A stretch of DNA of 35,008 bases, taken from assembly GCA_036560125.1 (NCBI GenBank), contig DATBRW010000015.1, forward strand, positions 1 through 35,008, in the 5' to 3' direction. The DNA is from Candidatus Limnocylindria bacterium (GTDB taxonomy: Bacteria > Chloroflexota > Limnocylindria > QHBO01). Positions within the stretch are counted from its first letter, which is position 1; every line of letters begins with the position of its first letter. The notes below the pieces were generated by a model. It did not search any database. It was not told where the DNA came from and was given only the letters and a program-made list of their open reading frames with translations. Of the stretch, positions 17,616-35,008 are shown one piece after another. A program made the translations under genes and the position numbers.

Positions 17616-18838
17616 TCAGCCGACGCTGGCGGCCGCCTTCGGGCTGCTTGCCAGCTTGCGCAGCTTCCTGCGCTCCGGAGCCTGGCTGCCGTCCAATGTC
17701 TCGTTGTCATCGCCGCGGATGAAGGCCTCCACCCGGTTGTAGGCGACATCGTCGTGGATCTGGAGCGGCGGCGACTTCATGAAATACGAAGATGGCGCGA
17801 CCAGGGTGCCGGCCAGGCCGCGGTCGAGGCCGAGCTTGGCGCAGCGGATGGCATCGGTGATGACGCCGGCGCTGTTCGGCGAATCCCAGACCTCGAGCTT
17901 CAGCTCCAGATTGAGCGGCACGTCACCGTAGGTCGTGCCCTCCATCCGGATGTGGCACCACTTGCGGTCCTTGAGCCACGGCACGTAGTCGGAGGGACCA
18001 ACGTGCACATCGTCGTCGCCGATCTCGTAGTCGAGCATGGAGGTGACCGCGTTGGTCTTGCTGATCTTCTTTGACTCCAGTCGCTCGCGCTCCAGCATGT
18101 TCAGGAAGTCGGTGTTGCCGCCGAAGTTCAGCTGGTAGGTGCGATCGATCCGCACGCCGCGATCCATGAAGAGGCGGGTCAGCACGCGGTGCGTGATGGT
18201 GGCGCCGACCTGGCTCTTGATGTCGTCGCCGATGATCGGCAGGCCCTTCTTGGCGAAGCGGCGCTGCCAGTACGGCTCGCGGCCGATGAAGACCGGGATG
18301 GCGTTGACGAAGGCCACGCCCGCCTGCAGCGCCTGCTCGACGTACCACTTGGTCGCCTCCTCGCTGCCGACCGGCAGGTAGGAGACCATGACGTCGACCT
18401 TGCGGTCCTTCAGGATGCCGACCACGTCGGCCGTCGGGCCGGGAGCCTTCTCGATCACCTGGCTCAGGTACTTGCCCAGGCCGTCGTGCGTCATGCCGCG
18501 CTCCACGGGGACGCCCAGGTTCGGCACGTCGGTGAACTTGAAGGTGTTGTTCTGCCCTGCCCAGATCGCCTCCGAGAGGTCCTTGCCGACCTTCTCCTTG
18601 TCGACGTCGAAGGCGGCCACGAACTCGATGTCGCGGATGTGGTAGCCGCCCAGGTTGACGTGCATCAGGCCGGGGACGAAGTCGGTCTCCTTGGCGTTCT
18701 CGTAGTAGTGGCGGCCCTGCACCAGGCTCAGGCGCAGTTGCCCACCCCCACGATCGCCACCCGGATCTTGCCGTCCGAGGCGCGGTGCCCGTTGCTCGCA
18801 TGCTTGCCGTTGGCGGTCTTGCCGTTTCCGTCAGCCAC
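17616..18838 (-). pseudogene. ino1: myo-inositol-1-phosphate synthase (ino1), reading frame interrupted by an apparent 1-nt deletion near 18727-18729; the largest intact ORF is 17616..18722
   Basis: ORF 17616..18722 is colinear with actinobacterial Ino1 from ...LVQG.HYY onward ([43 protein letters not shown]). The preceding Rossmann motif [13 protein letters not shown] lies in another frame (ORF 18728..19009) and ends at TGA 18730-18728. The junction reads GGC AAC TGC GCC TG AGC CTG GTG CAG, one base short of GNCA-S-SLVQG. GTG 18838, just after the pgsA stop, is a possible true start. Confidence 0.8.
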
Positions 18839-18839
18839 C

Positions 18840-19535
18840 CTATTCGCTCTCCTTTGGTGTGTTTGCGGTCGTGGTTGCTCCCTGGGGCGCGCCCGAGGTG
18901 AGCTGGTAGACGTGCCGGATTCGCTGCACCGTGGTCGCCACGGCCAGGATCGAGATGATTGCGAGTGCGCCGATGAGGGCCCAGTCGAAGCCGAAGCCCG
19001 CCAGGGCAATGCCTAGCACGATCAGCACCAGGCGCTCGACGCGCGACGCGAGGCCAACCTCCGCGGAGAGGCCGAGGCCCTCCGCGCGAGCCCGCGAGTA
19101 GCTGACCAGGAACGAGCCCGTGAGGGCGACCATGGCCAACAGCACGGGAATCGTCGGGTCGTCGCTCGACAGCAGGAAGTAGGCAGCCACGCCGCCATAC
19201 AGGATCGCCTCAGCTGCGCGATCGAGGGTCGAGTCGAAGAACGCGCCGAACGGCGAGGTACCGCCGCTGGCGCGCGCCAGCGAGCCGTCCACCGCGTCCA
19301 GCGCCGAGCCGAAGCCCAACAGCACGGCGCCGATCAGCAGGTTGCCGGTTCCCACCAGGATGGCGGCGGCGATGACGATCAACAGGCCGAAGACCGTCAC
19401 CATGTTGGCGGTGATATGGAGCGCGAGTGCCAGCCGCACGATCGGCGACAGCAGGGCGCGGCCCGCCTGCTTGGTGCGGGTCGACAGGATGGAGGTGCCG
19501 CGCGGCACGTCCTTCGTCTGCGGATGGCTAGACAT
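18840..19535 (-). CDS. pgsA1: CDP-alcohol phosphatidyltransferase, phosphatidylinositol-phosphate synthase-like
   Basis: Motif DAVDGSLARASGGTSPFGAFFDSTLDR matches D-x2-DG-x2-AR-x8-G-x3-D-x3-D. Polytopic, 231 aa. Adjacent to ino1, patA-like and pimA genes as in the mycobacterial PI/PIM locus. Confidence 0.85.
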   Translation of the reverse strand: MSSHPQTKDVPRGTSILSTRTKQAGRALLSPIVRLALALHITANMVTVFGLLIVIAAAILVGTGNLLIGAVLLGFGSALDAVDGSLARASGGTSPFGAFFDSTLDRAAEAILYGGVAAYFLLSSDDPTIPVLLAMVALTGSFLVSYSRARAEGLGLSAEVGLASRVERLVLIVLGIALAGFGFDWALIGALAIISILAVATTVQRIRHVYQLTSGAPQGATTTANTPKESE

Positions 19536-23920: not shown

Positions 23921-24730
23921 ATGACCGATCCGTCCCGGCCAGGCCCGGACCCGATCGCCACGGCGCTGTCGCTGGCGCGCAACGCCCTGGGCGTGGCGCC
24001 GGCCGGCCTGCTCACCGACCTTGACGGCACCTTGGCGCCGATCGTCGACGACCCCGACGCGTCGCGGCCGCTGTCCGAGGCGGTGGCCGCCCTGATGACC
24101 CTCACAACGCGGCTGGCAGTGGTGGCCGTCATCTCCGGTCGGGCGCCGGACGACGCCCGGCAGCGGCTGGGGACCGATCGCCTGCTGGTGATCGGCAATC
24201 ACGGGCAGGAGCGCCTGGAGCCAGGCGACGAGCGCGCCGCGCTGTCACCCGCGCTGGCGGAGGCCGCAGCGGCGATCCGTGCGGTGCTGGCTCGCGTCCC
24301 GCGCGAGGAGGGCGTGTGGGTCGATGACAAGGGGCCATCGGCCACCATCCACTACCGCAGCGCGGCGGACCCGGCGCGCGCGGCGGAGCGCATCGCGGCG
24401 GCGCTCGGTGATGTCTCGGCCGATGGGCTCGCGCTCCGGCCGGGGCGCATGTCCTGGGAGCTGCGCGCGGCCGGCGCCGCGGACAAGGGCACGGCGGTGT
24501 CGCAGCTCATTGCGCGCCACGCGTTGCGCGGCCTGGTGGTGCTGGGCGACGACGTCACCGACCTGGACATGTTCCGCGCGGCGAGCGAGGCGCGCGCCCG
24601 CGGCGAGCTGACCGCCGCCATCCTGGCCGTGGCGGGGGGCGACGAGGTCCCGTCGGCGGTGGCCGCCGCTGCGGACGCGGTGCTGCCCGACCCTCAGGCG
24701 GTGGCCGCGCTGCTGGCCGCCCTGCCGTAG
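23921..24730 (+). CDS. otsB: Trehalose-6-phosphate phosphatase (HAD-IIB)
   Basis: LLTDLDGTLAPIV (DxDGT nucleophile motif), VISGR, DKGTAV and VLGDDVTDLDMF are OtsB/HAD-IIB motifs. Confidence 0.85.
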   Translation: MTDPSRPGPDPIATALSLARNALGVAPAGLLTDLDGTLAPIVDDPDASRPLSEAVAALMTLTTRLAVVAVISGRAPDDARQRLGTDRLLVIGNHGQERLEPGDERAALSPALAEAAAAIRAVLARVPREEGVWVDDKGPSATIHYRSAADPARAAERIAAALGDVSADGLALRPGRMSWELRAAGAADKGTAVSQLIARHALRGLVVLGDDVTDLDMFRAASEARARGELTAAILAVAGGDEVPSAVAAAADAVLPDPQAVAALLAALP

Positions 24731-24736
24731 CGCGAC

Positions 24737-26260
24737 CTAGCGCTGGCCGCTGCGGCGCGCGCCGATGCGCGCCATGTCCTCCAGCTGCGAGCGCAGCCAC
24801 CAGCCGATGTCCTGGCGTTCCACGCCCGCTCGCAGGCCCGCGTGGCGGCGCGCCCGCTCGCGAGCCGGCATGGCGAGGGCCTCCGCCAGCGCGTCGGCGG
24901 TGCCCGCCACATCCGCCGGCGCCACGGGCAGCACGTAGTCGGCCATCTGGTCGTAGGCGCCGGCCGTCTCGGACAGCACCAGCACCGCGTCGCGTTGGCT
25001 GACCAGCGCCGCCTCCTTGGCGACCAGGTTCATGCCGTCGATCAGCGGGTTGACCAGCACCACATCGGCGATCGTCAGCCCGGCGATGGCCTGTGGGTAG
25101 TCGTTCTCGTAGAAGAGCTGCACATGGCGGTAGCCGGCGCGGCCGTAGCGGGCGTTGATGCGCTCGACCGCGCCCTGCACCTGCCGGCCGTAGTCGCCGT
25201 ACTCGCGCAGCCCCGTGCGTGACGGGACCAGGAAGGCGAGCATCGTGACCCGTCCCCGCAGCCGCGGGTTTCGTTGCAGCAGCAGCTCGAACGCGGCGAA
25301 GCCGCGCAGGATGTTCTTGGACGGCTCCAGTCGGTCGACGCGCACGATCAGCTGGTCGGCGGCGCCGGCCCGCAGCTGCTCCCCGCGGCGCCGAGCTCGC
25401 GCCGAGGCGGCGACCCGCTGCGTCGCCTCCACGTCCAGGCTGATGGGGTAGTGGCGGACATGGGCCACGTGCCCGTCGTCGCGCAGCACCCGCCGGGTGC
25501 GGTGATCGACCCGCGCGCCGGGCAGGAACGACTCAGCGGCGCGCAGGAAGTTGTGGGCGTAGCGCTCCGTCTGGAAGCCGACCACGTCGGCCGCCGACAG
25601 CCCCTCCACGATGGCGGTGCGGATGCGCGGCGTGATGACCTGCCACAGCGACGACGGTGGCCACGGGATGTGGGTGAAGTGGCTGACCAGCGCGCCCGGC
25701 CGGCGCTGCCGGATGAACGACGCGGCCAGGTACAGGTGGTAGTCGTGCAGCATGATGCGCGGCTCCTCGTCGTCGCCGGCCTCGGCCAGCGCGGCGCGCG
25801 CGAAGGCCTCGTTGACCGGAACGTAGCCCTTGTCCCAGGCGCGCAGGGTGGCCGTGTCGATCATCGGCCGCGTGGGCAGCTCCCACATCTGGTGCTGCAG
25901 GAACCAGAGCAGGGGGTTGGCGATCACGCCGTACGCCGCCTCGTACATCGGTCGCTCGACCGGCGTGAAGCGCAGCCGCACCTCACCCGGCAGCGCCTGG
26001 TCGATCAGGGATGGCCTGTTGATGCCCAGCCGATCGCCGTCGCTGAACGGCGCGGCGAGCCACGTCAGCGGCACGTGCTGGCCGACCTGTGACAGGGCCG
26101 TCACCAGGCCACCGCTGCCACGTCGCGGCCGCAGGCCGCCATCGGCCCCCAGGCTGAAGGTGACCGGTCCACGGTTGGTTGCGATCAGCAGCCGGCGGTC
26201 GCCGAGCAGGCGCCGCGCCGCCCCGGCCAGGAGGCGCTCCCCACGCTGCCGCGGGCTCAT
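24737..26260 (-). CDS. otsA: alpha,alpha-trehalose-phosphate synthase (GT20)
   Basis: GT20 motifs: LLIATNRGPV, LHDYHLYL, RVDRLEPSKNI, VNPLIDGMNLVAKE. Confidence 0.9.
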   Translation of the reverse strand: MSPRQRGERLLAGAARRLLGDRRLLIATNRGPVTFSLGADGGLRPRRGSGGLVTALSQVGQHVPLTWLAAPFSDGDRLGINRPSLIDQALPGEVRLRFTPVERPMYEAAYGVIANPLLWFLQHQMWELPTRPMIDTATLRAWDKGYVPVNEAFARAALAEAGDDEEPRIMLHDYHLYLAASFIRQRRPGALVSHFTHIPWPPSSLWQVITPRIRTAIVEGLSAADVVGFQTERYAHNFLRAAESFLPGARVDHRTRRVLRDDGHVAHVRHYPISLDVEATQRVAASARARRRGEQLRAGAADQLIVRVDRLEPSKNILRGFAAFELLLQRNPRLRGRVTMLAFLVPSRTGLREYGDYGRQVQGAVERINARYGRAGYRHVQLFYENDYPQAIAGLTIADVVLVNPLIDGMNLVAKEAALVSQRDAVLVLSETAGAYDQMADYVLPVAPADVAGTADALAEALAMPARERARRHAGLRAGVERQDIGWWLRSQLEDMARIGARRSGQR

Positions 26261-26264
26261 GGGC

Positions 26265-27734
26265 TCAGAAGAGGGCGCCGGCGGAAGTTCGCAGCCAGCC
26301 CAGGATCGGCTCCGGGAAGAGGCCCAGCAGCAGCACCCCCGCCACCGACAGGGCGAGCGCCGTGTTGACGAGTGGGTGGCGGTCGACGGGGGCCGGGTCG
26401 GCCTCCGGGTCGCGCATGTACATGTAGACGATGACGCGCAGGTAGTAGAAGGCGGCCATCGCCGCGTTCAGGGCGATCGCGACTGCCAGCCAGCTCAGGT
26501 CGGCGTTGACCGTGGCCAGCAGCACGTAGAGCTTGGCGAAGAAGCCGACGGTGGGCGGGATGCCGGTCAGCGACAGGAGCAGCACCGCCATGGCGGCGGC
26601 CACCGCCGGGGCTCGTCCCGCCAGGCCAGCAAAGCTGTTTAGCCCGCCGTAGCGCGCCGGGTCGTGCTGCAGCATGCCCACCACCGCGAAGGCCGCCAGG
26701 TTCATGATCCCGTAGCCCAGGACGTAGAACAGGATCGCCTCGATGCCCTGCTGCTGGACCGCGGGCGTGGTGGCGGCGCCGAAGGCGGCAAGGGCGGCCA
26801 GGATGTAGCCGGTGTGCGCGATGCTCGAATAGGCGAGCATCCGCTTCACGTTGGTCTGGGTCAGCGCCACCACGTTGCCCACCGTCATGGTCAGCACCGC
26901 CAGCACGCCAATGACCACCACCCAGTCGGCCCGCTGCGGTGCCAGCCCATCCGCGAAGAGGCGCACCAGCAGGGCGAAGGCCCCCAGCTTGGGGCCGACC
27001 GACAGGAAGCCGGTAATCGGGGTCGGGGCGCCCTGGTAGGCATCAGGCGTCCAGAAGTGGAACGGCACGGCCGCCGCCTTGAAGGTGGCGCCCACGGTCA
27101 GCAGGCCAATCGCCACCAGCGCCGCCGGCAACAGCGCGCCGGCCTCTCCCAGAGCGGGCCCGATCTCGCTGATGCGCGTCGTGCCGGTCAGGCCGTAGGT
27201 CCAGCTGATGCCGAACAGCAGGATGGCGGAGGCGAAGCTGCCGAGCAGGAAGTACTTCAGGCCGCCCTCATTGCTGAACCGATTGGTCTTGTGGAAGCCG
27301 GTCAGCAGGTAGGCGGGCATCACCATCAGCTCGAGGCCCAGGAAGAGGGTGATGAGGTCGGAGCTGCTGGCGAGCACGAACATGCCCAGCAGGCTGAAGC
27401 CCAGGATCGCATTGAACTCGCCCAGCGGCATGCGCCGCGAGACCAGGTACGAAGGTGCAAACAGGGCGGTCATGAAGCCGATGACCACCGTTGCCAGCTT
27501 GAAGAAGACGGACAGGTCGTCGACCACGTAGAAACCGGCGAAGACGGTCTCGTTGATGTCCCACACCATCACGCAGCCGATGCCGGTCAGCACCAGGCCG
27601 AACAGCATCAGCGGGGTCAGGATCGCCTTGGATCCGCGCGGCAGGAACAGGTCGGTGATGATCACGACCAGCACCGTCGTGAGCAGCAGCAGCTCCGGCA
27701 GCAGGGTGAACAGGTCGTTCAGCGGATCATCCAT
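26265..27734 (-). CDS. nuoN: NADH-quinone oxidoreductase subunit N
   Basis: 489-aa antiporter-like subunit (FHFWTPDAYQGAPTPITGF, KRMLAYSSIAHTGY), last in the J-K-L-M-N order. Confidence 0.9.
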   Translation of the reverse strand: MDDPLNDLFTLLPELLLLTTVLVVIITDLFLPRGSKAILTPLMLFGLVLTGIGCVMVWDINETVFAGFYVVDDLSVFFKLATVVIGFMTALFAPSYLVSRRMPLGEFNAILGFSLLGMFVLASSSDLITLFLGLELMVMPAYLLTGFHKTNRFSNEGGLKYFLLGSFASAILLFGISWTYGLTGTTRISEIGPALGEAGALLPAALVAIGLLTVGATFKAAAVPFHFWTPDAYQGAPTPITGFLSVGPKLGAFALLVRLFADGLAPQRADWVVVIGVLAVLTMTVGNVVALTQTNVKRMLAYSSIAHTGYILAALAAFGAATTPAVQQQGIEAILFYVLGYGIMNLAAFAVVGMLQHDPARYGGLNSFAGLAGRAPAVAAAMAVLLLSLTGIPPTVGFFAKLYVLLATVNADLSWLAVAIALNAAMAAFYYLRVIVYMYMRDPEADPAPVDRHPLVNTALALSVAGVLLLGLFPEPILGWLRTSAGALF

Positions 27735-27749: not shown

Positions 27750-29285
27750 TCACCACGGCAGGGAGAGGCTGGTCAGCCCGGTCGAGGGCGAGACCAGCTC
27801 GATGATCTTGTCGACCGGCGCCTGGGTCATGTCCAGCAGCGGGCCGGGGAACACGCCCAACCCCACCACCAGGATGATCAGCGGTGCCAGCGCCACCCAT
27901 TCCAGGCGATTCATGTCCGTGAGCGACGGCCACCAGCGGCGCATCCAGCCGGACGGGACGGTGAAGAACACGCGCTGGAACATCCAGAGCATGTACACCG
28001 CGCTGATGATGACCACGATCATGGCCGCGGCCGCCACCCAGGCGTTGTACTGGAAGGCGCCAAGCATGACCAGGAACTCGCCGACGAAGCCGGAGAGGCC
28101 TGGCAGGCCGATGCTGGCGAAGGTGAACAGCCCGAAGATGGCCGCGTAGCGCGGCAGCCGCGAGTTCAGGCCGCCCATGTGCGCGATCAGCCGATCGTGG
28201 GTGCGCTCGTAGATCACGCCCACCAGCAGGAAGAGGGCGCCGGTGGTGATGCCATGGCTGATCATCTGGAAGATGGCGCCCTGCAGGCCCTGGACGTTGA
28301 ACACGAAGGCGCCCAGCATCACGAAGCCCATGTGCGACACGCTCGAGTAGGCGATCAGCTTCTTCAGGTCCGGCTGCACCATGCTGACCACGGCCCCGTA
28401 CAGGATGGCGATCACGGCCAGCGCGATGACGATCGGGGCGAACTCGACCGCCGCATCGGGCAGCAGCGGCAGGCTGTAGCGCAGGAAGCCGTAGCCGCCC
28501 AGCTTGAGCAGCACGCCGGCCAGGATGATGGAGCCGGCGGTCGGCGCCTCCACATGGGCATCGGGCAGCCAGGTATGCAGCGGCCACATCGGCACCTTGA
28601 TGGCGAAGGCCAGGAAGAAGGCGATGAACGCCAGCGCCTGCAGCCCATCGGCGAATGGATAACCGCGCAGCTGCTCGTAGGCGAAGGTGAACTCGTTGCC
28701 GCCGGAGGCGTGGGCGATGGCCACCGCCAGGATGGCGACCAGCATCAGCAGCGAGCCGACCAGCGTGTAGATCACAAACTTGACGGTCGCGTAGATGCGT
28801 CGCGGGCCGCCCCAGATCCCGATCACCAGGTACATCGGGATCAGGCTGATCTCCCAGAAGACGTAGAACAGGAACAGGTCAAGGCTGACGAACACGCCCA
28901 GCATGCCCACCATCAGCAGCAGCATGGTGGCGTAGTACTCCTTGACTCGCGTCTGGATCGGCGCCCAGGAGTAGAGGATGGCCACCACGCTCAGGACCGT
29001 GGTCAGGATCACCAGTGCCACGGAGAGTCCATCGACTCCCAGCCGGTACCCCATGCCGAAGGCCGGTATCCACTCGACCTCCTCGCGGAACTGGAACTCC
29101 GGCCCGCCGGCCTGGTAGCCGAGCAGCAGCAGGCTGAAGCCCGTGGTGGCCAGCGCGGCCAGGAGCGCGATCCAGCGGATGGCCCGATGGCGATCGCCGG
29201 GCACCAGCAGCAGGATCAGCACCCCGATCACCGGGGTGAAGACCACCAGGCTCAGCACCGGGATGTCGCGGGCGAAATCGATCAT
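27750..29285 (-). CDS. nuoM: NADH-quinone oxidoreductase subunit M
   Basis: Start at ATG 29285 (MIDFARDIPVLSLV), overlapping the nuoL stop (ATGA). Motifs: HTWLPDAHVEAPTAGSIILAGVLLKLGGYG, KKLIAYSSVSHMGF. The ORF-track extension to 29456 is Arg-rich and lies inside nuoL. Confidence 0.9.
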   Translation of the reverse strand: MIDFARDIPVLSLVVFTPVIGVLILLLVPGDRHRAIRWIALLAALATTGFSLLLLGYQAGGPEFQFREEVEWIPAFGMGYRLGVDGLSVALVILTTVLSVVAILYSWAPIQTRVKEYYATMLLLMVGMLGVFVSLDLFLFYVFWEISLIPMYLVIGIWGGPRRIYATVKFVIYTLVGSLLMLVAILAVAIAHASGGNEFTFAYEQLRGYPFADGLQALAFIAFFLAFAIKVPMWPLHTWLPDAHVEAPTAGSIILAGVLLKLGGYGFLRYSLPLLPDAAVEFAPIVIALAVIAILYGAVVSMVQPDLKKLIAYSSVSHMGFVMLGAFVFNVQGLQGAIFQMISHGITTGALFLLVGVIYERTHDRLIAHMGGLNSRLPRYAAIFGLFTFASIGLPGLSGFVGEFLVMLGAFQYNAWVAAAAMIVVIISAVYMLWMFQRVFFTVPSGWMRRWWPSLTDMNRLEWVALAPLIILVVGLGVFPGPLLDMTQAPVDKIIELVSPSTGLTSLSLPW

Positions 29286-31501
29286 GGCCGCATCACCAGG
29301 TAGGCGATCAGCACCAGCACCAGCCCGCTGGCGATGCCCAACCCGTAGTTCTGGGTGCGTCCGGTCTGGAGCTTGCGCAGGATGGAGCCGATGCGCTGCG
29401 CCAGCCAGCCGGCGCCGTTGACGATGCCGTCGATGACGTTGGCGTCGAACCACCACAGCGCCCTGCCCAGCCGCACGCCGCCACGGGCGAACACGGCCAG
29501 GTACAGCTCGTCGATGTAGAACTTGTTCACGCTGGCGGCGTACAGGCCGGGTCCCCAGCCAAACGGGATGCGCTCAACGAAGCGCGCCGGCGCCGTCGGC
29601 TGACGGACGTAGAAGCGGTACGCAAGGTAGATGCCCAGCGCGGCCACGATCGAGGTGACGGTCAGCAGCAGGCCGTCGTGGCCGATGAGCTGGAAGGTTT
29701 CGTGCCCCGTGGCGGCGAAGGAGCCCGGCTGGATGCCCGCACCCGTCTCCTCCGCCCCCGCGAAGACCGGCTCCAGCCAGGTGTGGATCGCGCCGCCCTC
29801 CGGCGGCAGGCCCAACAGCACCCCTGCCAATACGGTCGGCACCGCCAGGATGACCAGCGGCGCGACCATGGTCGCCGTCGACTCGTGGACGTGACGCCAG
29901 GCCTCAGCCGGGCCGCGCCACTTGCCGTGGAAGGTCATGTAGATCATGCGGAAGGTGTAGAAGGCGGTCATGAAGGCCACGATCACGCCAACGACATAGA
30001 AGGCGTAGTAGCCGTGGTTGAAGGCCGTGCCAAGGATCTCGTCCTTGCTGAAGAAGCCGGCGAAGATCGGGATGCCGGCCAATGCCAGCGAGCCGACCAC
30101 CATGGTCCAGTAGGTCCATGGCATCGACACCCGCAGCTCGCCCATGTAGCGCATGTCCTGCTCGCCGTCTGCGCCGTGGATCACCGAGCCGGAGCCCATG
30201 AACAGCAGGCCCTTGAAGAATCCATGTGCCACCAGGTGGAAGATGGCTGAGGCCCATGCGCCGATGCCCAGCGCGAAGAACATGTAGGCCAGCTGGCTCA
30301 CCGTCGAGTAGGCGAGCACCTTCTTGATGTCGTTCTGGGTGAGCGCTATCGCGGCGGCCAGGATGGCGGTGAAGACGCCGATGCTGGCCACCACCCACAT
30401 GGCGGTGGGGCTCTCCGCAAAGATCGGGTTGGCGCGGGCGACCATGTAGACCCCCGCGTTGACCATGGTGGCGGCGTGGATCAGGGCACTGACCGGGGTC
30501 GGGCCCTCCATGGCATCCGGCAGCCAGACGTGCAGGGGGAACTGGGCGCTCTTGCCCACTGCGCCGGCGAACAGCAGCAGGGCAATCAGCGTGATCTGCC
30601 ACTCAGGTAGCCCGCCGATGGCCGCGAACACCTCGTCGAACTGCAGCGTGCCCAACGCGCTCCAGATGGCCAGGATGCCCAGCCCGAAGCCGAAGTCACC
30701 GACCCGATTGACGATGAAGGCCTTCTTCGCGGCGCCGGCGGCGGAAGGCTTCTTGTACCAGTAGCCGATGAGCAGGTAGCTGCACAGGCCGACCGCCTCC
30801 CAGCCGACGTATAGCATCAGGAAGTTGTCGCCCAGGATCAGCAGCAGCATGCTGAACATGAACAGGTTCAGGTAGGCGAAGAAGCGCCACAGGCCTCGAT
30901 CGCCGTTCATGTAGCCGATCGAGTAGACGTGGACGAGCAGGCCCACGCTGCTGACCACCAACAGCAGCATCGCGGTCAGCTGGTCGACGAAGAACGCGAT
31001 CTCGACCTGGAAGTCGCCGGCGCCGATCCAGCGGTAGAGGACGACGTGGTACTCCTGCTCGCCGAAGATGACGTTGGCGAACACGATCATGCTGAGCACC
31101 CAGCCCACCGCCACGGCCAGGGTCGGCACGATCCAGGAGACGTAGCGCGGCTGCGGGCCGTCCGGGGTGACATGGCCCGCCTGGCCCAGCCCGTCGTTCA
31201 GGTCGGGCGGGATGACGCCATCGGCGCCGGCAGCGTTGGCCAGGTCGTCGGCGTGGCCGGCGTGCGGGCTGGTCGCTCGCTGCTCCTCCTCGGTGGGAAT
31301 CGGCTGCAGGTCCTCATCGGCTCCACTGGCGTGGGCGTCGTGGGCGTCGGCGTCGCCGTGCTCGTCCGCGCCCGCGTGCGCATCAGTCCCGTGGTCGTCA
31401 TGGCCATGGACCGGGACGCGGTCCAGCCGTGGACCCAGCAGCACGGCGAACAGGAAGCCCGCCAGCGGCAACGCCGGGATCAGGACGATCAGCAGCTCCA
31501 T
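29282..31501 (-). CDS. nuoL: NADH-quinone oxidoreductase subunit L, with a ~100-aa His/Asp-rich insertion after TM1
   Basis: HVWLPDAMEGPTPVSALIHAATMVNAGVY and KKVLAYSTVSQLAYMF are NuoL hallmarks. 739 aa. Residues ~27-130 (HGHDDHGTDAHAGADEHGDADAHDAHASGADED...) are an acidic His-rich insert. Confidence 0.9.
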   Translation of the reverse strand: MELLIVLIPALPLAGFLFAVLLGPRLDRVPVHGHDDHGTDAHAGADEHGDADAHDAHASGADEDLQPIPTEEEQRATSPHAGHADDLANAAGADGVIPPDLNDGLGQAGHVTPDGPQPRYVSWIVPTLAVAVGWVLSMIVFANVIFGEQEYHVVLYRWIGAGDFQVEIAFFVDQLTAMLLLVVSSVGLLVHVYSIGYMNGDRGLWRFFAYLNLFMFSMLLLILGDNFLMLYVGWEAVGLCSYLLIGYWYKKPSAAGAAKKAFIVNRVGDFGFGLGILAIWSALGTLQFDEVFAAIGGLPEWQITLIALLLFAGAVGKSAQFPLHVWLPDAMEGPTPVSALIHAATMVNAGVYMVARANPIFAESPTAMWVVASIGVFTAILAAAIALTQNDIKKVLAYSTVSQLAYMFFALGIGAWASAIFHLVAHGFFKGLLFMGSGSVIHGADGEQDMRYMGELRVSMPWTYWTMVVGSLALAGIPIFAGFFSKDEILGTAFNHGYYAFYVVGVIVAFMTAFYTFRMIYMTFHGKWRGPAEAWRHVHESTATMVAPLVILAVPTVLAGVLLGLPPEGGAIHTWLEPVFAGAEETGAGIQPGSFAATGHETFQLIGHDGLLLTVTSIVAALGIYLAYRFYVRQPTAPARFVERIPFGWGPGLYAASVNKFYIDELYLAVFARGGVRLGRALWWFDANVIDGIVNGAGWLAQRIGSILRKLQTGRTQNYGLGIASGLVLVLIAYLVMRP

Positions 31502-31511: not shown

Positions 31512-31817
31512 CTACTCCTTCAGGTCGGAGTACTCGTCGACCTCGGGGGTCTGACGGGTGCGGATGATGGCGATTACCAGCGCCAGGCCGACGGTCGCCT
31601 CTGCGGCAGCCACGGCCATGACCAGCAGGGAGAAGACCCCGCCGATGTTGTCTGGGTCCGGCAGGTAGGCGTTGAATGCGACGAGGCTGAGGTTGACCGC
31701 ATTCAGCATCAGCTCGATGCAGATCAGCATCAGGATCGCGTTGCGCCGGGCCAGGAAGCCGAACGAGCCGATCCCGAACAGCAGCGCCGATACGACGAGA
31801 TAGCCGGTCAGCCCCAT
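31512..31817 (-). CDS. nuoK: NADH-quinone oxidoreductase subunit K
   Basis: Start at internal ATG 31817 (MGLTGYLVVSALLFGIGSFGFLARRN). 101 aa, 3 TM, LICIELMLNAVNL. The start shares one base with the nuoJ stop. Confidence 0.9.
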   Translation of the reverse strand: MGLTGYLVVSALLFGIGSFGFLARRNAILMLICIELMLNAVNLSLVAFNAYLPDPDNIGGVFSLLVMAVAAAEATVGLALVIAIIRTRQTPEVDEYSDLKE

Positions 31818-32326
31818 CAGTTCGCCTCCTCGTCCTCTTCGGGCCGGCGGGCCAGGAAGATGGCGCCGATGATGGCCGCCAGCAGCAGCAGGCTCAGGAT
31901 CTCGAAGGGCAGCGCGTAATCCGTGAAGAGGACCTGGCTGAGCGCCTGCAGGCTGATGACGGTCACCTCGGCGGCGGCACCCCAGTCGGTGGTCACCGCG
32001 GTGAAGGTGATCAGCGCCACCACCATCACGGAAACGGCCAAGGCCAGCCACGCCTGGCGGTGGAACGGCGATGGCAGGTTGGCGTCGCCGGCCTGGGTGA
32101 GCATGATGGCGAACAGGATCAGCACGCTGATGGCGCCCAGGTAGATGAGCACCTGCGCGGCGGCGATGATGCCGGCGCCCAGCAGCAGGTACATGCCGGC
32201 CAGCGACCCGAAGCAGACCATCATGGCGATCGCCGAGTGGATGACGTTGCGGAGGGTGACGACGGCAAGGCCACCGCCGACGACGCCGACGGCGAGCAGG
32301 ACGAAGAGGACAGCCGTGATGTCCAG
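31817..32326 (-). CDS. nuoJ: NADH-quinone oxidoreductase subunit J (apparent CTG initiation)
   Basis: The ORF from ATG 32224 (MMVCFGSLAG...AQVLIYLGAISVLILFAIML) lacks NuoJ TM1. The same frame is open upstream and encodes (L/M)DITAVLFVLLAVGVVGGGLAVVTLRNVIHSAIA, a typical NuoJ N-terminus. There is no in-frame ATG/GTG/TTG. CTG 32326-32324 lies 9 nt downstream of AAGGAG (32341-32336). Confidence 0.7.
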   Translation of the reverse strand: MDITAVLFVLLAVGVVGGGLAVVTLRNVIHSAIAMMVCFGSLAGMYLLLGAGIIAAAQVLIYLGAISVLILFAIMLTQAGDANLPSPFHRQAWLALAVSVMVVALITFTAVTTDWGAAAEVTVISLQALSQVLFTDYALPFEILSLLLLAAIIGAIFLARRPEEDEEAN

Positions 32327-32445
32327 GGCGAGGCTCTCCTTGGTTGGGTTCGAGCGCTCAGAAGCGGCCCCGGATCGTCGCGAGGCCGCGTCCGATTCTA
32401 GCGCAGGCGGCGCGCGGGATACCCATCAGCGAGAATGGGCGCCGC

Positions 32446-32883
32446 ATGTTCCGCCTCTTCGCCGGCGTGTTGCTGGGCCTCTGGTTGGGGGTCGCATTCG
32501 CCATCACGCTGCGCGAGGCGCATCCCCTGCCCGGGCAGGTCGTCAACGACAACTCCACCCCGTTCGCCACCATCCGGATCTATCTCGCCAACCTGGACTC
32601 GGCCTTCTGGATCGCGCAGGGGATTGGCAACCTGCTTCTGCTGCTGCCGGTGGGCCTGCTCGGCCCGATTGCGCTGCCGTGGCTGAACCGATGGTGGCGC
32701 GTGCTGCTGGTGGCGCTGATCCTGTCTGCCTGCATCGAGGCGGCGCAGCTCTGGATCCCGGAGCGCTCCGCCGACGTCGACGACGTGATGCTCAATGCGG
32801 TCGGCGCCCTGCTCGGCTATTGGCTGCTGCTCCTCATCCGGCCCCGCCCGAGCACGGGTGAGCCCCTTCTCGGCCCCGATTGA
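32446..32883 (+). CDS. VanZ-family membrane protein
   Basis: Start at internal ATG 32446 (MFRLFAGVLLGLWLG). Four TM segments and the C-terminal CIEAAQLWIPERSADVDDVMLNAVGALLGY match the VanZ signature (E..Q....R..D.DD...N..G). Confidence 0.75.
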   Translation: MFRLFAGVLLGLWLGVAFAITLREAHPLPGQVVNDNSTPFATIRIYLANLDSAFWIAQGIGNLLLLLPVGLLGPIALPWLNRWWRVLLVALILSACIEAAQLWIPERSADVDDVMLNAVGALLGYWLLLLIRPRPSTGEPLLGPD

Positions 32884-33073
32884 GCTTGAGCCAGAACGAC
32901 CGCCGTCCCGGGTTATGCACCACAGATATGGTGGCCGGAAGGTCGCCTGATTTCGGCCCTTCGGCGCATCGGTCTATGCAGGCTGGGGCATATCCGGTGG
33001 TCTGACAGCCACCAGGTTGCCCACACCATATCCCTGATGAATAGCCGCGCGATTAGCGGCCGAACCCCAGGGA

Positions 33074-35008
33074 TCAGCGGGTGGGGCGCTCCCGGTCGGA
33101 CATCTGGAGGATGTCGAGCATCGGCAGGTCGCGCTGGTATTCGCTGAACTCGAACTCCGGGCCGCAGCGCAGCGCGTCGTACGGGCAGGCATCAGCGCAG
33201 ATGCCGCAGAAGATGCACCGGCTGATGTCGAGCTGGTAGGTCTCCAAGGTGCGCGGTCGGGGCATCAGCGCGCCGACCGGGCAGGTCTCAGCACAGCGGC
33301 CGCACGACACGCACGGCGTCTCGTTCAGCGACACGAAGTCGGCAGTGGTGACCAGCGAGTCGAAGCCCTTGCCGATGAAGTCGTAGCAGCCGGCGCCCAC
33401 GATGTCCTTGCAGACCTGGGCGCAGCGCCCGCAGTCGATGCACCGGGAGTAGTCGCGAAGGATGAAGGAGTGCGTTTCGTCGCGGCCGTAGCCGTGGTTG
33501 ACGCCGACGTACGGGTTGTCCTGGATCGAGCGCTCGTCGATGGCCATGTTGAGCGTCGTCTCGTACTCGATCGCCGCCTCGCGCAGGTCGCAGTGGCCGA
33601 TCGCCTCGCAGGTGCACTGCAGGCAGCGCGCGGCCTCGCCCATGGCCTGGTCGTGCGTGTAGCCGAACTCGTACTCGTCGAAGTTCGTCTTGCGCTCCTC
33701 GGCGCCGAGCTTGCCCATCACCGCCTTCGGCTCCTTCACGTCGTCGGTGAAGGGCACGATGGTCAGGAAGTTGGGCTGCGGCTCGGACACGATGCGGCGC
33801 ACCTGCGGGTCGTCCAGGTCGTGCCCGCGCAGCCAGTAGTCGATGGCATAGGAGGCGCGCCGTCCCTCACCGATGGCCTCGACCACGGTGGTGGCCCCGG
33901 CCCGCACGTCGCCCGAGGCGAACACCCGCGGCACGCCGGTGCGGAAGATGTCCTCTTCGGCGACCAGCGTCCCGCGCCGGCTCACCTCCAGCTGGGCCCG
34001 GATCTCCTCCGGCTCGGACTCGATCCATGACAGCTCCGGTCCCTGGCCGATGGCGCCCAGCACGGTGTCGCACTCGACCACGAACTCGGTGCCGGGCATC
34101 GGCTCCGGGCGGCGGCGACCCTTCTCGTCGGGCGCCCCGAGCTTCATCCGCTGGAACTCGACGCCGGTCACCTTGTTGTTCCTGTCGGTCATGATGCGCA
34201 CCGGCGCGGCCTGGAAGATGACCCGCGCGCCCTCCTCGATCGCCTCGTGCACCTCGTCCTGCGACGGCATGTCCTTCAGGTCGCGGCGGTAGACGATCGA
34301 CACCTCGGCCGCGCCCTGCCGCAGGCTGGTGCGAGTGCAGTCGATGGCCGTGAAGCCGCCGCCGATGACGACCACCCTTGCGCCCTTCAGGGCCGGGATC
34401 GGCAGGCCGCGGGTGCTGTTGTAGAGGTTCTCCAGGGCGTTGACCACGCCGTCGGCATCCTCGCCGTGGATGCCCAGCTCGTTCGACTTGTAGCAGCCAA
34501 TGCCCACGTAGACCGCGTCATAGCCCTGCTCCAGCAGGTCGGCGACGTGGAAGTCGCGGCCGAGCCGCATGTTCGGCCTGAAGGTGGCGCCCAGCTCCCA
34601 GACGTGATTCAGCTCACGATCCATCCAGCCCTTCGGCAGGCGGTACTCGGGGATGCCGTAGCGCAGCATGCCGCCCTGCTCCGGATCGGCCTCGAAGACG
34701 TCGCAGTGATGGCCCCGCAGCTGCAGGTAGTAGGCGGCCGCCATGCCGGCCGGGCCGGCGCCGATGACCGCCACCCGGCGTCCGGTGTCCGGGTCCTTCG
34801 GCCATGGGATGGGCGCCGGCGCGTCCACCTCCAGCACGCGATCCGCACAGTACCGATGCGAGTCGCGGATGGCGATGGCAGTGTCGACCTCCTCGCGGCG
34901 GCAGTGCGTTTCGCACGGCGCCGGGCAGACGCGGCCCAGGATGGCGGGGAAGGGGAGCGAGCGCTTCAGGATGCGCGTCGCCTCCTCCCAGTTGCCCAGG
35001 CTGTTCTG
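33074..35008 (-). CDS. 5'-partial fusion protein: GltD-like NAD(P)H-dependent FAD/Fe-S oxidoreductase, NuoG/FdhA-N-terminal-like Fe-S region, and a NuoI-like 2x[4Fe-4S] C-terminus
   Basis: The frame is open to the window end: upstream of the ORF-track start it reads ...FPAILGRVCPAPCETHCRREEVDTAIAIR, the GltD N-terminal Fe-S motif. Then VAVIGAGPAGMAAAYYL, VVVIGGGFTAIDC and VFASGDV (GltD dinucleotide folds), then CLQCTCEAIGHCDL and CIDCGRCAQVCKD. The last ~80 aa are CVSCGRCAETCPVGAL...SRCIFCGICADACPYDALRCGPEFEFSEYQRDL, which closely resemble NuoI (E. coli CVACNLCAVACPVG...[34 protein letters not shown], from memory). Confidence 0.8.
   Translation of the reverse strand, partial: QNSLGNWEEATRILKRSLPFPAILGRVCPAPCETHCRREEVDTAIAIRDSHRYCADRVLEVDAPAPIPWPKDPDTGRRVAVIGAGPAGMAAAYYLQLRGHHCDVFEADPEQGGMLRYGIPEYRLPKGWMDRELNHVWELGATFRPNMRLGRDFHVADLLEQGYDAVYVGIGCYKSNELGIHGEDADGVVNALENLYNSTRGLPIPALKGARVVVIGGGFTAIDCTRTSLRQGAAEVSIVYRRDLKDMPSQDEVHEAIEEGARVIFQAAPVRIMTDRNNKVTGVEFQRMKLGAPDEKGRRRPEPMPGTEFVVECDTVLGAIGQGPELSWIESEPEEIRAQLEVSRRGTLVAEEDIFRTGVPRVFASGDVRAGATTVVEAIGEGRRASYAIDYWLRGHDLDDPQVRRIVSEPQPNFLTIVPFTDDVKEPKAVMGKLGAEERKTNFDEYEFGYTHDQAMGEAARCLQCTCEAIGHCDLREAAIEYETTLNMAIDERSIQDNPYVGVNHGYGRDETHSFILRDYSRCIDCGRCAQVCKDIVGAGCYDFIGKGFDSLVTTADFVSLNETPCVSCGRCAETCPVGALMPRPRTLETYQLDISRCIFCGICADACPYDALRCGPEFEFSEYQRDLPMLDILQMSDRERPTR

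What the first reader, a model, noticed from the sequence alone, without database searches (positions are those of the whole stretch)
33074..35008. The nuoI position is occupied by a GltD-like flavoprotein fused to NuoG-like and NuoI-like Fe-S modules: a possible alternative electron-input module for complex I
Immediately upstream of nuoJ in transcription order, interrupted only by the antisense VanZ gene, lies a >640-aa gene that is 5'-truncated by the window.

Its last ~80 residues look like a NuoI core. They carry both CxxCxxCxxxCP motifs with NuoI-like context and the NuoI-type C-terminal F-E-x-x-E-Y-x-R-D-L signature: CVSCGRCAETCPVG...SRCIFCGICADACPYDAL..PEFEFSEYQRDL.

N-terminal to this are:
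- a NuoG/formate-dehydrogenase-N-terminal-like cluster region (CLQCTCEAIGHCDL; RCIDCGRCAQVCKD);
- a complete GltD-type NAD(P)H:FAD oxidoreductase (GRVCPAPCETHCRR Fe-S motif, VAVIGAGPAGMAAAYYL, VVVIGGGFTAIDC, FASGDV).

A single polypeptide would thus wire a pyridine-nucleotide/FAD site through a chain of Fe-S clusters into the N6a/N6b position of complex I. That is the job normally done by NuoE, NuoF and NuoG. I am not aware of a described GltD-NuoI fusion. If the upstream genes are nuoA-D/H without nuoEFG, this would be a new type of N-module, for example NADPH-linked.
Basis: partly seen in the sequence, partly recalled or inferred. Interest (0 to 1): 0.8.

Follow-up and report, generated by a model that had tools for sequence, protein, structure and literature searches.

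The report
Complex I with a split NuoI
The gene is the large subunit of an unusual respiratory complex I, common in soil and freshwater Chloroflexota and Actinomycetota, whose NAD(P)H-oxidising head came from a transhydrogenase-like three-gene cassette inserted into the nuoI gene, leaving each half of NuoI fused to a different subunit.

Summary

- Full-length relatives (794-890 aa) align end to end with StnC/NfnA, the large subunit of Bfu-type NADPH transhydrogenases: a 2Fe-2S domain, an inserted GltD FAD/NADPH domain and a HydA-type dicluster domain.
- StnC's FdhF-like domain is replaced by only the C-terminal half of NuoI.
- The true N-terminal half of NuoI sits on the N-terminus of the NuoE-like protein.
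- The operon is nuoA-B-C-D-H-[NuoI_N::E]-F-[this gene]-J-K-L-M-N, so NuoE and NuoF homologues are present.
- E, F and the large subunit all resemble StnABC/NfnABC more than they resemble canonical NuoEFG.

All 53 related loci with enough upstream sequence show this order. Relatives are numerous in Ca. Limnocylindria; Thermoleophilia loci show the same operon.

Most likely function: a proton-pumping NAD(P)H:quinone oxidoreductase whose N6a/N6b domain is assembled from two polypeptides.

I found no description of the split NuoI or of a GltD module in nuo. "Nuo-Bfu" is the nearest published idea.

Verdict: new variant of a known kind; interest 0.74.

The parts
33074..35008 (-). 3' 1,935 nt (644 codons plus stop) of the large N-module subunit. 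It is StnC/NfnA-like (BfuA-type) and fused to the C-terminal half of NuoI. The 5' ~450 nt lie outside the window.
   Evidence: It is 94% identical to the full-length P0001 (794 aa). P0001 aligns end to end with 9bov_A (E 1.7e-162) and with StnC 8oh5_C (E 4.8e-146).
33824..35008 (-). GltD-type module: the second Fer4_20 cluster motif (GRVCPAPCETHC), the FAD Rossmann motif (GAGPAG), the NAD(P)H Rossmann motif (GGGFTA plus IVYRRD) and FASGDV.
   Evidence: Residue-by-residue alignment to the NADPH-binding NfnA/StnC domain. FAD and NADPH binding is inferred from conserved motifs only.
33251..33676 (-). Return from the GltD insertion into the NuoG/HydA-like Fe-S domain. It holds the second half of the His-ligated (N5/FS4C-like) cluster motif (CLQCTCEAIGHC) and the HydA-type 2x[4Fe-4S] domain, made of M1 (CIDCGRCAQVC) and M2 (CVSCGRCAETCP).
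   Evidence: M1 and M2 align to StnC residues ~602-680 and to HydA. All Cys are invariant in 65 family members. Assignment of ligands to clusters is inferred by homology.
33077..33250 (-). C-terminal half of NuoI: motif CIFCGICADACPYDAL plus the NuoI-specific tail PEFEFSEYQRDL.
   Evidence: - TIGR01971 positions 71-112 of 121.
- E. coli NuoI residues 90-128, E 4.3e-13.
- Joined in silico to the N-half from L002, it gives one continuous NuoI match over positions 5-112 at 109.6 bits.
32344..32883 (+). VanZ-family gene; the probable real start is near 32446 (MFRLF...). It is convergent with the fusion gene and divergent from nuoJ. It is cargo in a variable insertion site, not part of the complex.
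   Evidence: (VanZ, E 1e-23). The gap between the fusion gene and nuoJ is roughly 0.15-5.2 kb in the window's clade (read from nuoJ positions in the full-flank loci), and nuoJ abuts in the others.
31817..32325 (-). nuoJ. The listed ORF starts at 32224, but the conserved TM1 lies upstream in the same frame. A CTG start after an AAGGAG box is probable.
31512..31817 (-). nuoK
   Evidence: Oxidored_q2, E 1.1e-26.
29282..31501 (-). nuoL, with a His/Asp-rich insertion of about 90 aa at 31154-31420.
   Evidence: (NF005141, 730.9 bits, cutoff 556).
27750..29285 (-). nuoM
   Evidence: TIGR01972, 610.5 bits, cutoff 263.8.
26265..27734 (-). nuoN
   Evidence: TIGR01770, 431.4 bits, cutoff 332.6.

Best explanation
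The gene encodes the largest peripheral-arm subunit of a 12-gene complex I found in Ca. Limnocylindria (Chloroflexota) and in Thermoleophilia (Actinomycetota).

Shown: gene architecture
- The operon is nuoA-B-C-D-H-[NuoI_N::NuoE-like]-[NuoF-like]-[BfuA/StnC-like::NuoI_C]-J-K-L-M-N.
- This is an 11-subunit-type operon (ABCDH-I-JKLMN) with a three-gene cassette lying inside nuoI.
- The cassette is related to the Bfu-type NADPH transhydrogenases StnABC/NfnABC.
- Both ends are fused in frame. The N-terminal half of NuoI (membrane-proximal helix plus the first CxxCxxCxxxCP) heads the NuoE-like protein. The C-terminal half (second motif plus the FE..Y.R tail) ends the large subunit, where it replaces StnC's inactive FdhF-like domain.

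Inferred: assembly
- The two NuoI halves co-fold into one 2x[4Fe-4S] domain equivalent to N6a/N6b.
- That domain docks on NuoB/D/H and tethers the module to the Q-module by two polypeptides.

Inferred: electron path
- NADPH reduces FAD in the GltD domain. Electrons pass through its two [4Fe-4S] clusters and the His-ligated cluster.
- NADH reduces FMN in the NuoF-like subunit. Electrons pass through the N3-like cluster and the 2Fe-2S cluster.
- Both routes meet at the HydA-type dicluster domain, which is covalently followed by NuoI_C. Electrons then go through N6a/N6b and N2 to quinone.
- Proton pumping is by the ordinary H/A/J/K/L/M/N membrane arm.

Inferred: no bifurcation in Limnocylindria
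The features needed for electron bifurcation are gone in Limnocylindria:
- the extra Fe-S domains of BfuB;
- the second Cys pair of the 2Fe-2S site in the NuoE-like domain;
- one Cys of the N3 cluster motif.
The enzyme is therefore most likely a plain NAD(P)H:quinone oxidoreductase. The GltD/NADPH site is at least a co-equal input and possibly the main one.
For: Architecture of the large subunit
- P0001 residues 34-754 align end to end with NfnA 9bov_A residues 3-698 and with StnC 8oh5_C residues 3-700.
- The StnC domain map comes from PMC10482914.

Split NuoI
- The NuoE-fusion N-terminus matches TIGR01971 positions 5-73 and E. coli NuoI residues 9-83.
- The window gene's C-terminus matches positions 71-112 and E. 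coli NuoI residues 90-128.
- The two halves joined in silico give one continuous match over positions 5-112 at 109.6 bits.

Operon
- The gene order is seen.
- 53 of 53 loci with enough upstream sequence have the order H, NuoI_N, E, F.
- 59 of 59 NuoI_N copies keep CxxCxxCxxxCP, and 80 of 80 loci keep the second NuoI motif.

Bfu origin of the cassette
- The NuoF-like protein scores E 8.4e-111 and 5.9e-109 against NfnB and StnB, but only 2.9e-72 against the best complex I NuoF.
- The NuoE-like domain scores E 2.7e-22 against the Bfu C subunit, but 8.1e-13 against the best complex I NuoE.

Genuine complex I core
- NuoB, D, H, L, M and N all pass their NCBIfam cutoffs.

NADPH and FAD motifs
- They are conserved with NfnA/StnC, including YRR.

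Loss of bifurcation features
- The NuoF-like protein is 440-461 aa and lacks the Fer2 and Fer4 domains.
- Its N3 motif reads CGK[A/T]xPC in 54 of 56 motif matches.
- The NuoE-like domain has lost its second Cys pair.
Against: - There is no structural or biochemical evidence. The only model (AF2 of P0001) had pLDDT below 40 for residues 560-794 (mean 56.4 overall), so it says nothing about cluster geometry.
- The window does not contain the upstream genes. They are inferred from relatives with 80-92% DNA identity.
- I could not scan a whole Limnocylindria genome. A second, canonical nuo operon or a stand-alone nuoI elsewhere is not excluded.
- Pairing of NuoI_N with NuoI_C rests on homology. 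Other pairings among the four CxxCxxCxxxC motifs cannot be excluded.
- A Por-associated locus (L008) carries the same split ends without any nuo genes. The split ferredoxin may therefore be a feature of the cassette rather than proof of docking at the NuoI site.
- In the window's clade the NuoF-like motif NADEGDPG has become NL[IM]xxDP[TS] and one N3 Cys is missing. The NADH branch may be impaired.
Confidence: 0.66

Rival explanations
1. A version of the reader's idea. The GltD FAD/NADPH site is the only working electron input. The NuoE-like and NuoF-like subunits of the window's clade are structural remnants, which would make this a dedicated NADPH:quinone complex I.
For: - The NuoE-like domain lacks the second Cys pair of its 2Fe-2S site.
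- The NuoF-like N3 motif lacks its middle Cys in 54 of 56 motif matches.
- The window's clade has lost the Glu of the NADEGDPG nucleotide motif.
- The GltD motifs are invariant in 65 sequences.
Against: - The NuoF-like protein keeps GRGGxG(Y/F)P, GEET and three N3 Cys invariant across about 40% sequence divergence. That implies selection on an FMN/Fe-S site.
- The second Limnocylindria clade keeps the Glu, and Thermoleophilia keep a complete BfuB.
Confidence: 0.17
2. An electron-confurcating or bifurcating Nuo-Bfu. The module couples NADH (or NADPH) and reduced ferredoxin oxidation to quinone reduction, as Schut et al. proposed for Nuo-Bfu.
For: - E, F and the large subunit are Bfu-family proteins.
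- The Thermoleophilia version keeps a full BfuB of 636-638 aa, with Fer2 and 2xFer4 domains and an intact 2Fe-2S in the E subunit.
- The concept is published (PMC9304861).
Against: In Limnocylindria, including the window's clade, the N-terminal 2Fe-2S domain and C-terminal dicluster domain of BfuB are absent, and the cluster ligands of the E subunit are lost. PMC11829005 and PMC12018979 assign bifurcation in NfnABC to a composite flavobicluster site (abstracts). That the missing BfuB domains form part of that site is my own recollection; I did not read those papers.
Confidence: 0.08
3. The enzyme runs mainly in reverse. Proton-motive force drives electrons from quinol to NADP+ (and NAD+) to supply biosynthetic NADPH.
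For: - Complex I is reversible (established knowledge).
- The GltD module is the NADP(H) site of the Nfn/Stn enzymes, whose physiological role is NADPH supply (PMC10482914; PMC9304861).
Against: Nothing in the locus points to lithotrophy. The neighbours are trehalose, lipid and transport genes. Direction cannot be read from sequence.
Confidence: 0.07
4. Coincidental adjacency or an artefact. The gene would be a soluble Nfn/Stn-like oxidoreductase, or a chimeric assembly, that merely sits next to nuo genes.
For: - Antisense genes separate it from nuoJ in the window's clade.
- Annotation pipelines call it a formate dehydrogenase or an FAD-dependent oxidoreductase.
Against: - Both NuoI halves are conserved and there is no other nuoI or nuoG in the operon.
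- The gene abuts or overlaps nuoJ in clade 2 and in Thermoleophilia.
- The order is identical in 53 of 53 loci from many assemblers.
Confidence: 0.02

Closest known systems
StnC of Sporomusa ovata StnABC and NfnA of Bfu-type NfnABC (PDB 8oh5, 9bov, 9n5u; PMC10482914, PMC11829005, PMC12018979)
   Same: - The domain order matches: HydA-like 2Fe-2S, GltD FAD/NADPH domain inserted at the His-ligated cluster, then a HydA-type 2x[4Fe-4S] domain.
- The partner E-like and F-like subunits are also the closest PDB relatives.
- StnC is described as a NuoG-like domain plus a GltD-like NADPH domain that passes electrons from NADPH/FAD to the StnAB core.
   Different: - The FdhF-like domain (StnC residues 683-1172) is replaced by about 58 residues of NuoI C-terminal half.
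- The gene lies inside a nuo operon.
- The Limnocylindria F subunit lacks the extra Fe-S domains of BfuB.
- The acceptor is presumably quinone via N2, not NAD+/ferredoxin.
Predicted 'Nuo-Bfu' complex I (Schut et al. 2022, PMC9304861) and NUO-2 of Nitrospina/Kuenenia (PMC3578206)
   Same: A complex I whose NADH module is of Bfu type and sits in the middle of the nuo cluster.
   Different: - Those were described as 14 separate subunits, A-N; no GltD/NADPH domain or split NuoI is mentioned (the NuoG-like subunit of Nitrospina/Kuenenia NUO-2 keeps the N1b, N4, N5 and N7 cluster motifs).
- They were reported from Deferribacteres, Proteobacteria, Planctomycetes and Nitrospirae.
- Here there are 12 genes, H precedes E, NuoI is split, a GltD module is present, and the hosts are Limnocylindria and Thermoleophilia.
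- A text search of PMC9304861 found no 'split', 'fused' or 'fusion'.
Canonical NuoI (Nqo9/TYKY) and NuoG (Nqo3/75 kDa)
   Same: - The NuoI signature residues are conserved on both halves.
- The NuoG-like N-terminal 2Fe-2S and cluster motifs are present.
   Different: - NuoI is carried on two polypeptides.
- The molybdopterin-like domain of NuoG is absent.
- The HydA-type domain has both clusters, and a GltD domain is inserted.
mbx-like operons of Thermotoga and some proteobacteria, in which NuoI is replaced by a gltD-related flavoprotein (Degli Esposti 2015, PMC4758237)
   Same: A GltD-type NAD(P)-interacting flavoprotein at the NuoI position of a complex-I-related operon.
   Different: That is a different membrane complex (Mbx-like, hydrogenase-derived NuoD). 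The paper mentions no NuoE/F-like subunits, no StnC architecture and no split NuoI for it. I did not examine these sequences here.
Por-Bfu and Mbh-Bfu of Chloroflexi (PMC9304861)
   Same: A Bfu cassette embedded among the genes of another enzyme. Locus L008 (porG-porD-porA-[half-Fd::E]-BfuB-[StnC-like::M3::PorB]) carries the same NuoI-like split ends.
   Different: The partner enzyme is a 2-oxoacid oxidoreductase or a hydrogenase, not complex I. The split ends are not mentioned in the paper.

Membership tests
NuoI (TIGR01971 / PRK05888) | Whole-protein HMM score at or above the curated cutoff (113.05 bits for TIGR01971). | tested here: not met
   - 57.4 bits for the window fragment and 63.8 bits for its last 108 aa.
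- The match covers only model positions 71-112.
- The in-silico rejoined halves reach 109.6 bits over positions 5-112.
NuoI (TIGR01971 / PRK05888) | Both CxxCxxCxxxCP motifs (N6a/N6b) and the N-terminal helix in one polypeptide. | tested here: not met
   - This gene carries only the second NuoI motif.
- The N-terminal helix and the first motif are on the NuoE-like protein.
- The upstream motif in this gene aligns to StnC/HydA motif 2.
NuoI (TIGR01971 / PRK05888) | NuoI-specific tail after motif 2 (FE..Y.R..L) and a position between nuoH and nuoJ. | tested here: met
   - Aligns to E. coli NuoI residues 90-128, E 4.3e-13.
- Gene order shown.
BfuA / StnC / NfnA (Bfu-type Nfn large subunit) | Domain order: 2Fe-2S domain, then GltD FAD/NADPH insertion, then HydA-type dicluster domain. 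| tested here: met
   P0001 residues 34-754 align to 9bov_A residues 3-698 (E 1.7e-162) and to 8oh5_C residues 3-700. The 2Fe-2S part lies outside the window and is seen only in relatives.
BfuA / StnC / NfnA (Bfu-type Nfn large subunit) | C-terminal FdhF/molybdopterin-like domain; in StnC it is required for tetramer assembly. | tested here: not met
   The protein ends about 58 residues after motif M2 and has no Molybdopterin Pfam hit. StnC domain map.
BfuA / StnC / NfnA (Bfu-type Nfn large subunit) | Partner BfuB with an N-terminal 2Fe-2S domain and a C-terminal 2x[4Fe-4S] domain (the bifurcating core). | tested here: not met
   The Limnocylindria F subunit is 440-461 aa with only Complex1_51K, SLBB and NADH_4Fe-4S domains. 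The feature is met in the Thermoleophilia relatives, at 636-638 aa.
Glutamate synthase small subunit GltD (TIGR01317/01318) | Score above the cutoff and partnership with a GltB large subunit. | tested here: not met
   - 312.7 bits against a cutoff of 482.95, and 221.5 bits against 447.7.
- The neighbours are nuo genes and no gltB is present.
- This is homology at domain level only.
NuoG (TIGR01973) | Full-length match that includes the molybdopterin-like domain. | tested here: not met
   101.5 bits against a cutoff of 470.05; only model positions 1-95 are matched.
Respiratory complex I (nuo) operon | Core subunits NuoB, D, H, L, M and N pass curated models and are syntenic. | tested here: met
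   - Scores against cutoffs: NuoB 221.9/142.7; NuoD 408.4/360; NuoH 317.8/305; NuoL 730.9/556; NuoM 610.5/263.8; NuoN 431.4/332.6.
- B, D and H were taken from relative L002, because they are outside the window.
Respiratory complex I (nuo) operon | Quinone reduction coupled to proton pumping, and the identity of the donor (NADH or NADPH). | not testable with these tools
   This needs biochemistry or a structure.

The most novel reading that the evidence does not exclude
Abundant soil and freshwater bacteria (Limnocylindria, Thermoleophilia) respire with a complex I whose electron-input head was acquired independently of NuoEFG. An Nfn/Stn-type NADPH transhydrogenase cassette was inserted into nuoI. 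As a result the N6a/N6b ferredoxin domain is built from two different polypeptides, and the enzyme pumps protons with NADPH as a physiological donor. In Limnocylindria NADPH would be the principal donor. This would be a living example of how N-modules are bolted onto the 11-subunit ancestor, and a natural NADPH-driven complex I.
Probability: 0.3. Interest if true: 0.9.

Novelty: new variant of a known kind. Interest (0 to 1): 0.74.

Why it matters
1. Evolution of complex I. The accepted picture is that an 11-subunit core recruited a soluble NADH-dehydrogenase module (PMC3144371). Here the recruitment event is still legible in the gene order: the cassette sits inside nuoI and its donor family (Nfn/Stn Bfu enzymes) is identifiable. 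That makes the modular-recruitment hypothesis directly testable by phylogeny and structure.

2. Protein architecture. To my knowledge a Fe-S ferredoxin domain naturally split between two subunits of complex I has not been described. It would show that N6a/N6b can be assembled in trans.

3. Bioenergetics. A GltD-type NADPH/FAD site wired into the complex I chain suggests respiratory oxidation of NADPH with proton pumping, or pmf-driven NADPH synthesis. From my own knowledge, something like this has so far only been obtained by engineering NuoF.

4. Ecology and annotation. The family has thousands of members in metagenomes and hundreds of GTDB species. It is annotated as "formate dehydrogenase major subunit", "FAD-dependent oxidoreductase" or "NuoE". 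Metabolic reconstructions of these lineages therefore probably report complex I as lacking NuoG and NuoI.

Tried and rejected
- AlphaFold2 of full-length P0001 with a 65-sequence alignment. Mean pLDDT was 56.4 and residues 560-794 scored below 40. The model is useless for the Fe-S region, so I ran no fold search and did not spend the second job.
- Promoter and terminator consensus scan of 32100-33300. Nothing was found, which is uninformative in a 69% GC Chloroflexota genome.
- Reconstructing the missing 5' end from the nearest relative L010 (92% DNA identity). That MAG has frame-shifted ORFs, so I used L002 instead.
- A strict regular expression for NuoI_N found it in only 52 of the 80 loci and missed seven with a full upstream flank. 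tblastn found it in all 53 loci with enough upstream sequence.
- The reading that M2 plus M3 form a complete NuoI core. Rejected for three reasons: M2 aligns to StnC/HydA motif 2; the true NuoI first motif is on the NuoE fusion; and rejoining the halves nearly doubles the NuoI score.
- Cys765 (LRCGP) as a cluster ligand. Rejected because it is not conserved in Thermoleophilia.
- Glutamate synthase, formate dehydrogenase or hydrogenase catalytic neighbours. None is present.
- Eight literature searches. They returned no description of a split NuoI or of a GltD-containing nuo operon.
- Searching for a second nuoI or nuoG elsewhere in a complete genome.


Full report
**1. The observation**

Window 33074-35008 on the - strand is one open frame of 644 codons. 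It runs off the window end and stops at 33074-33076.

- Pfam finds Pyr_redox_2, Fer4_20, Fer4/Fer4_7 and a weak Fer4_Nqo3.
- The best NCBIfam matches are PRK12814/PRK12771, a "GltD-like protein with extra Fe-S" family (E ~1e-130). Next come GltD-family models. NuoI models match only at the extreme C-terminus.
- Downstream on the same strand are nuoJ, K, L, M and N. A VanZ gene on the opposite strand lies between this gene and nuoJ.

**2. What the protein is**

*Relatives.* Homologues are abundant: 7,705 proteins with E <= 1e-20. Full-length relatives are 794-890 aa and have an N-terminal 2Fe-2S domain that the window cuts off.

*Closest solved structures.* The full-length relative P0001 (94% identical) aligns end to end, over residues 34-754, with three chains:
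- 9bov_A, the NfnA subunit of a Bfu-type NfnABC (E 1.7e-162);
- 8oh5_C, StnC of Sporomusa ovata (E 4.8e-146);
- 9n5u_A, an archaeal NfnA.

[quoted passage not shown] It passes electrons through Fe-S clusters to the NuoE/NuoF-like StnAB core, and its C-terminal FdhF-like domain is inactive (PMC10482914).

What is new is the end of the protein. The FdhF-like domain is absent, and about 58 residues of NuoI follow directly after the second motif of the HydA-type dicluster domain.

**3. The NuoI part is only half of NuoI; the other half is on NuoE**

*The C-terminal half.*
- The C-terminus matches TIGR01971 (NuoI) positions 71-112 of 121, and E. coli NuoI residues 90-128.

*The N-terminal half.* I scanned the neighbouring "NuoE" of relative L002 (285 aa).
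- Its first ~85 residues are the N-terminal half of NuoI: TIGR01971 positions 5-73, E. coli NuoI residues 9-83, with the sequence PKVTNQYPE...RGR...KCEVCFQCAQVCPVEAIDM.
- A linker of ~45 residues follows, then a NuoE 2Fe-2S-type domain.
- The same holds in L003, L004, L006 and L089.

*Rejoining test.* Joining the two halves in silico gives a single continuous NuoI match over positions 5-112. It scores 109.6 bits against a cutoff of 113.05.

**4. The operon**

In relatives the order is nuoA-B-C-D-H-[NuoI_N::E]-F-[large subunit::NuoI_C]-J-K-L-M-N. This is the order of an 11-subunit operon (A-B-C-D-H-I-J-K-L-M-N) with E, F and the large subunit lying inside nuoI.

I surveyed 80 loci from GTDB species representatives.
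- All 53 loci with enough upstream sequence have the order H, NuoI_N, E, F.
- 59 of 59 NuoI_N copies keep CxxCxxCxxxCP.
- 80 of 80 loci keep the second NuoI motif.

The core subunits are genuine complex I: NuoB, D, H, L, M and N pass their curated cutoffs.

There is, however, no separate nuoG or nuoI in the operon.

**5. Origin of the cassette**

| Subunit | Best Bfu-type match | Best complex I match |
|---|---|---|
| NuoF-like | NfnB 9bov_B, E 8.4e-111; StnB 8oh5_B, E 5.9e-109 | E 2.9e-72 |
| NuoE-like domain | 9bov_C, E 2.7e-22 | E 8.1e-13 |

All three proteins therefore point to a Bfu-type Nfn/Stn donor.

- In Thermoleophilia the F subunit is a full BfuB of 636-638 aa, with an N-terminal 2Fe-2S domain and a C-terminal dicluster domain. 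The E subunit keeps its four Cys.
- In Limnocylindria F is reduced to 440-461 aa. Its N3 motif reads CGK[A/T]xPC in 54 of 56 motif matches. The E subunit has lost the second Cys pair.
- In the window's clade the NADEGDPG motif has become NL[IM]xxDP[TS].
- The GltD FAD and NADPH motifs, including YRR, are invariant.

**6. Distribution**

The best 80 are almost all Ca. Limnocylindria/Chloroflexota MAGs.
- One of them is a complete 2.09-Mb chromosome. The nearest relative is 92% identical in DNA.
- A second lineage has 982 proteins with E <= 1e-100. The members that carry a name are from Thermoleophilia/Actinobacteria MAGs. The three loci I examined (L006, L007, L089) have the same operon.
- The large subunit is annotated "formate dehydrogenase major subunit", "FAD-dependent oxidoreductase" or "GltD-like/formate hydrogenlyase subunit 6". 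The NuoE-like fusion is annotated "NuoE".

**7. Mechanism**

*Shown:* the gene architecture, the complementary NuoI halves, the Bfu ancestry and the conservation of all cluster ligands.

*Inferred:*
- The two NuoI halves co-fold into the N6a/N6b domain on NuoB/D/H.
- Two routes meet at the HydA-type dicluster domain, which is covalently followed by NuoI_C. One route runs NADPH -> FAD -> GltD clusters -> His-ligated cluster. The other runs NADH -> FMN -> N3-like cluster -> 2Fe-2S cluster.
- Electrons then pass through N6a/N6b and N2 to quinone.
- In Limnocylindria the bifurcation-specific parts are gone. A simple NAD(P)H:quinone oxidoreductase is therefore most likely, with NADPH at least a co-equal donor.
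- In canonical complex I the exit to N6a is from N5. Here the GltD domain is inserted at the N5-type motif, so the exit is more probably from the second HydA-type cluster. This is speculation that needs a structure.

*Rivals:*
- NADPH-only input with vestigial E and F.
- Ferredoxin-dependent confurcation, which is plausible for Thermoleophilia but not for Limnocylindria.
- Reverse operation.
- Coincidental adjacency, which is contradicted.

**8. Comparison with the literature**

- Schut et al. (PMC9304861) predicted "Nuo-Bfu", "Mbh-Bfu" and "Por-Bfu". Their Nuo-Bfu is described as 14 subunits (A-N) in other phyla; no GltD domain or split NuoI is mentioned. The paper does not contain the words split, fused or fusion.
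- Nitrospina and Kuenenia NUO-2 are of that type.
- Degli Esposti (PMC4758237) noted a gltD-related flavoprotein replacing NuoI in mbx-like operons of Thermotoga.
- A 2025 HMM survey of complex I variants mentions only C/D and B/C/D fusions.
- I found no description of a split NuoI or of an Nfn-type GltD module in a nuo operon. The library does not cover all journals.

**9. Limits**

- The upstream genes lie outside the window and are inferred from close relatives.
- No whole genome could be scanned for a second nuoI or nuoG.
- The AF2 model was unusable in the Fe-S region.
- Donor specificity and direction of operation are untested.

**10. Verdict**

The feature is real. It is wrong in two respects: NuoE and NuoF homologues are present, and the C-terminus is only half of NuoI.

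This is a new variant of a known kind: complex I with an alternative, Bfu-derived N-module. It has an unusually informative gene architecture. Interest 0.74.

Noticed in passing
window 32224-32344 (- strand): nuoJ has no ATG, GTG or TTG upstream of 32224, yet the frame stays open and encodes the conserved TM1 (LDITAVLFVLLAVGVVGGGLAVVTLRN). An AAGGAG box at ~32339-32334 is followed by CTG at ~32325, which suggests a CTG start codon.
   Followed up: partly
window 31154-31420 (- strand, inside nuoL): NuoL carries a His/Asp/Ala-rich insertion of about 90 residues after TM1 (HGHDDHGTDAHAGADEHGDADAHDAH...). NuoL of close relatives is the same length (729-730 aa) but I did not inspect their sequence. 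Clade-2 NuoL is 651-668 aa and lacks the extra length. A metal-binding role is possible.
   Followed up: partly
L003:12400-12550 and L004:12415-12571 (alignment A1, columns 860-966): Large subunits of the second Limnocylindria clade end in extra tails of 55-95 residues that finish rich in His, Gly and Asn (GNGHGHAH...). The window's clade lacks them.
   Followed up: no
window 32225-33073; L001:12398-13083; L002:12386-14967: The site between the large subunit gene and nuoJ is an insertion hotspot in the window's clade. The gap is roughly 0.15-5.2 kb and the antisense cargo differs: VanZ here; glyoxalase, VanZ, a 360-aa protein and an iron permease in L002; a 128-aa ORF in L001. This splits the operon into two transcription units. 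In clade 2 and in Thermoleophilia nuoJ abuts or overlaps the large subunit gene.
   Followed up: partly
L008:3052-11150: The locus reads porG-porD-porA-[half-ferredoxin::NuoE-like]-BfuB-[StnC-like::third CxxCxxCxxxCP::PorB]. The same cassette with the same split ends is fused to a pyruvate:ferredoxin oxidoreductase beta subunit. The rejoined halves still match NuoI best (61.8 bits, positions 33-115) but lack NuoI's N-terminal helix.
   Followed up: partly
L006:3466-14432; L007:8-9582; L089:3565-18336: The same 12-gene operon occurs in L089, from an NCBI assembly whose relatives are named Thermoleophilia (Actinomycetota), and in the unnamed metagenome contigs L006 and L007. All keep a full-length BfuB-type F (636-638 aa) and an intact 2Fe-2S in the E subunit. 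In one sub-lineage (P0145, P0427) the NADPH Rossmann/YRR motif of the GltD domain has degenerated.
   Followed up: partly
L001-L004 and L009-L088, NuoF-like genes (for example L002:8599-9981): The N3 cluster motif is CGK[A/T]xPC instead of CGKCxPC in 54 of 56 motif matches; two keep the Cys. The other three ligands are invariant, so the cluster may be a 3-Cys or [3Fe-4S]-type cluster.
   Followed up: partly
window 13747-19535 (- strand): A cluster resembling actinobacterial phosphatidylinositol-mannoside synthesis: a GT4 glycosyltransferase, a PHP_C protein, two HtrB-like acyltransferases, myo-inositol-1-phosphate synthase and a CDP-alcohol phosphatidyltransferase.
   Followed up: no
window 23921-26260; L001:19047-21384; L003:18567-21133: The trehalose genes otsA and otsB sit directly after nuoN in the window and in locus L001, and in clade-2 locus L003. 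L004 shows only a nearby trehalose phosphatase, and L002 has neither.
   Followed up: no
L010:947-6603: The nearest relative (92% DNA identity, MAG MFD02840.bin.2.48) shows broken or merged ORFs across E, F and the large subunit. These look like indel errors in the assembly rather than biology.
   Followed up: partly
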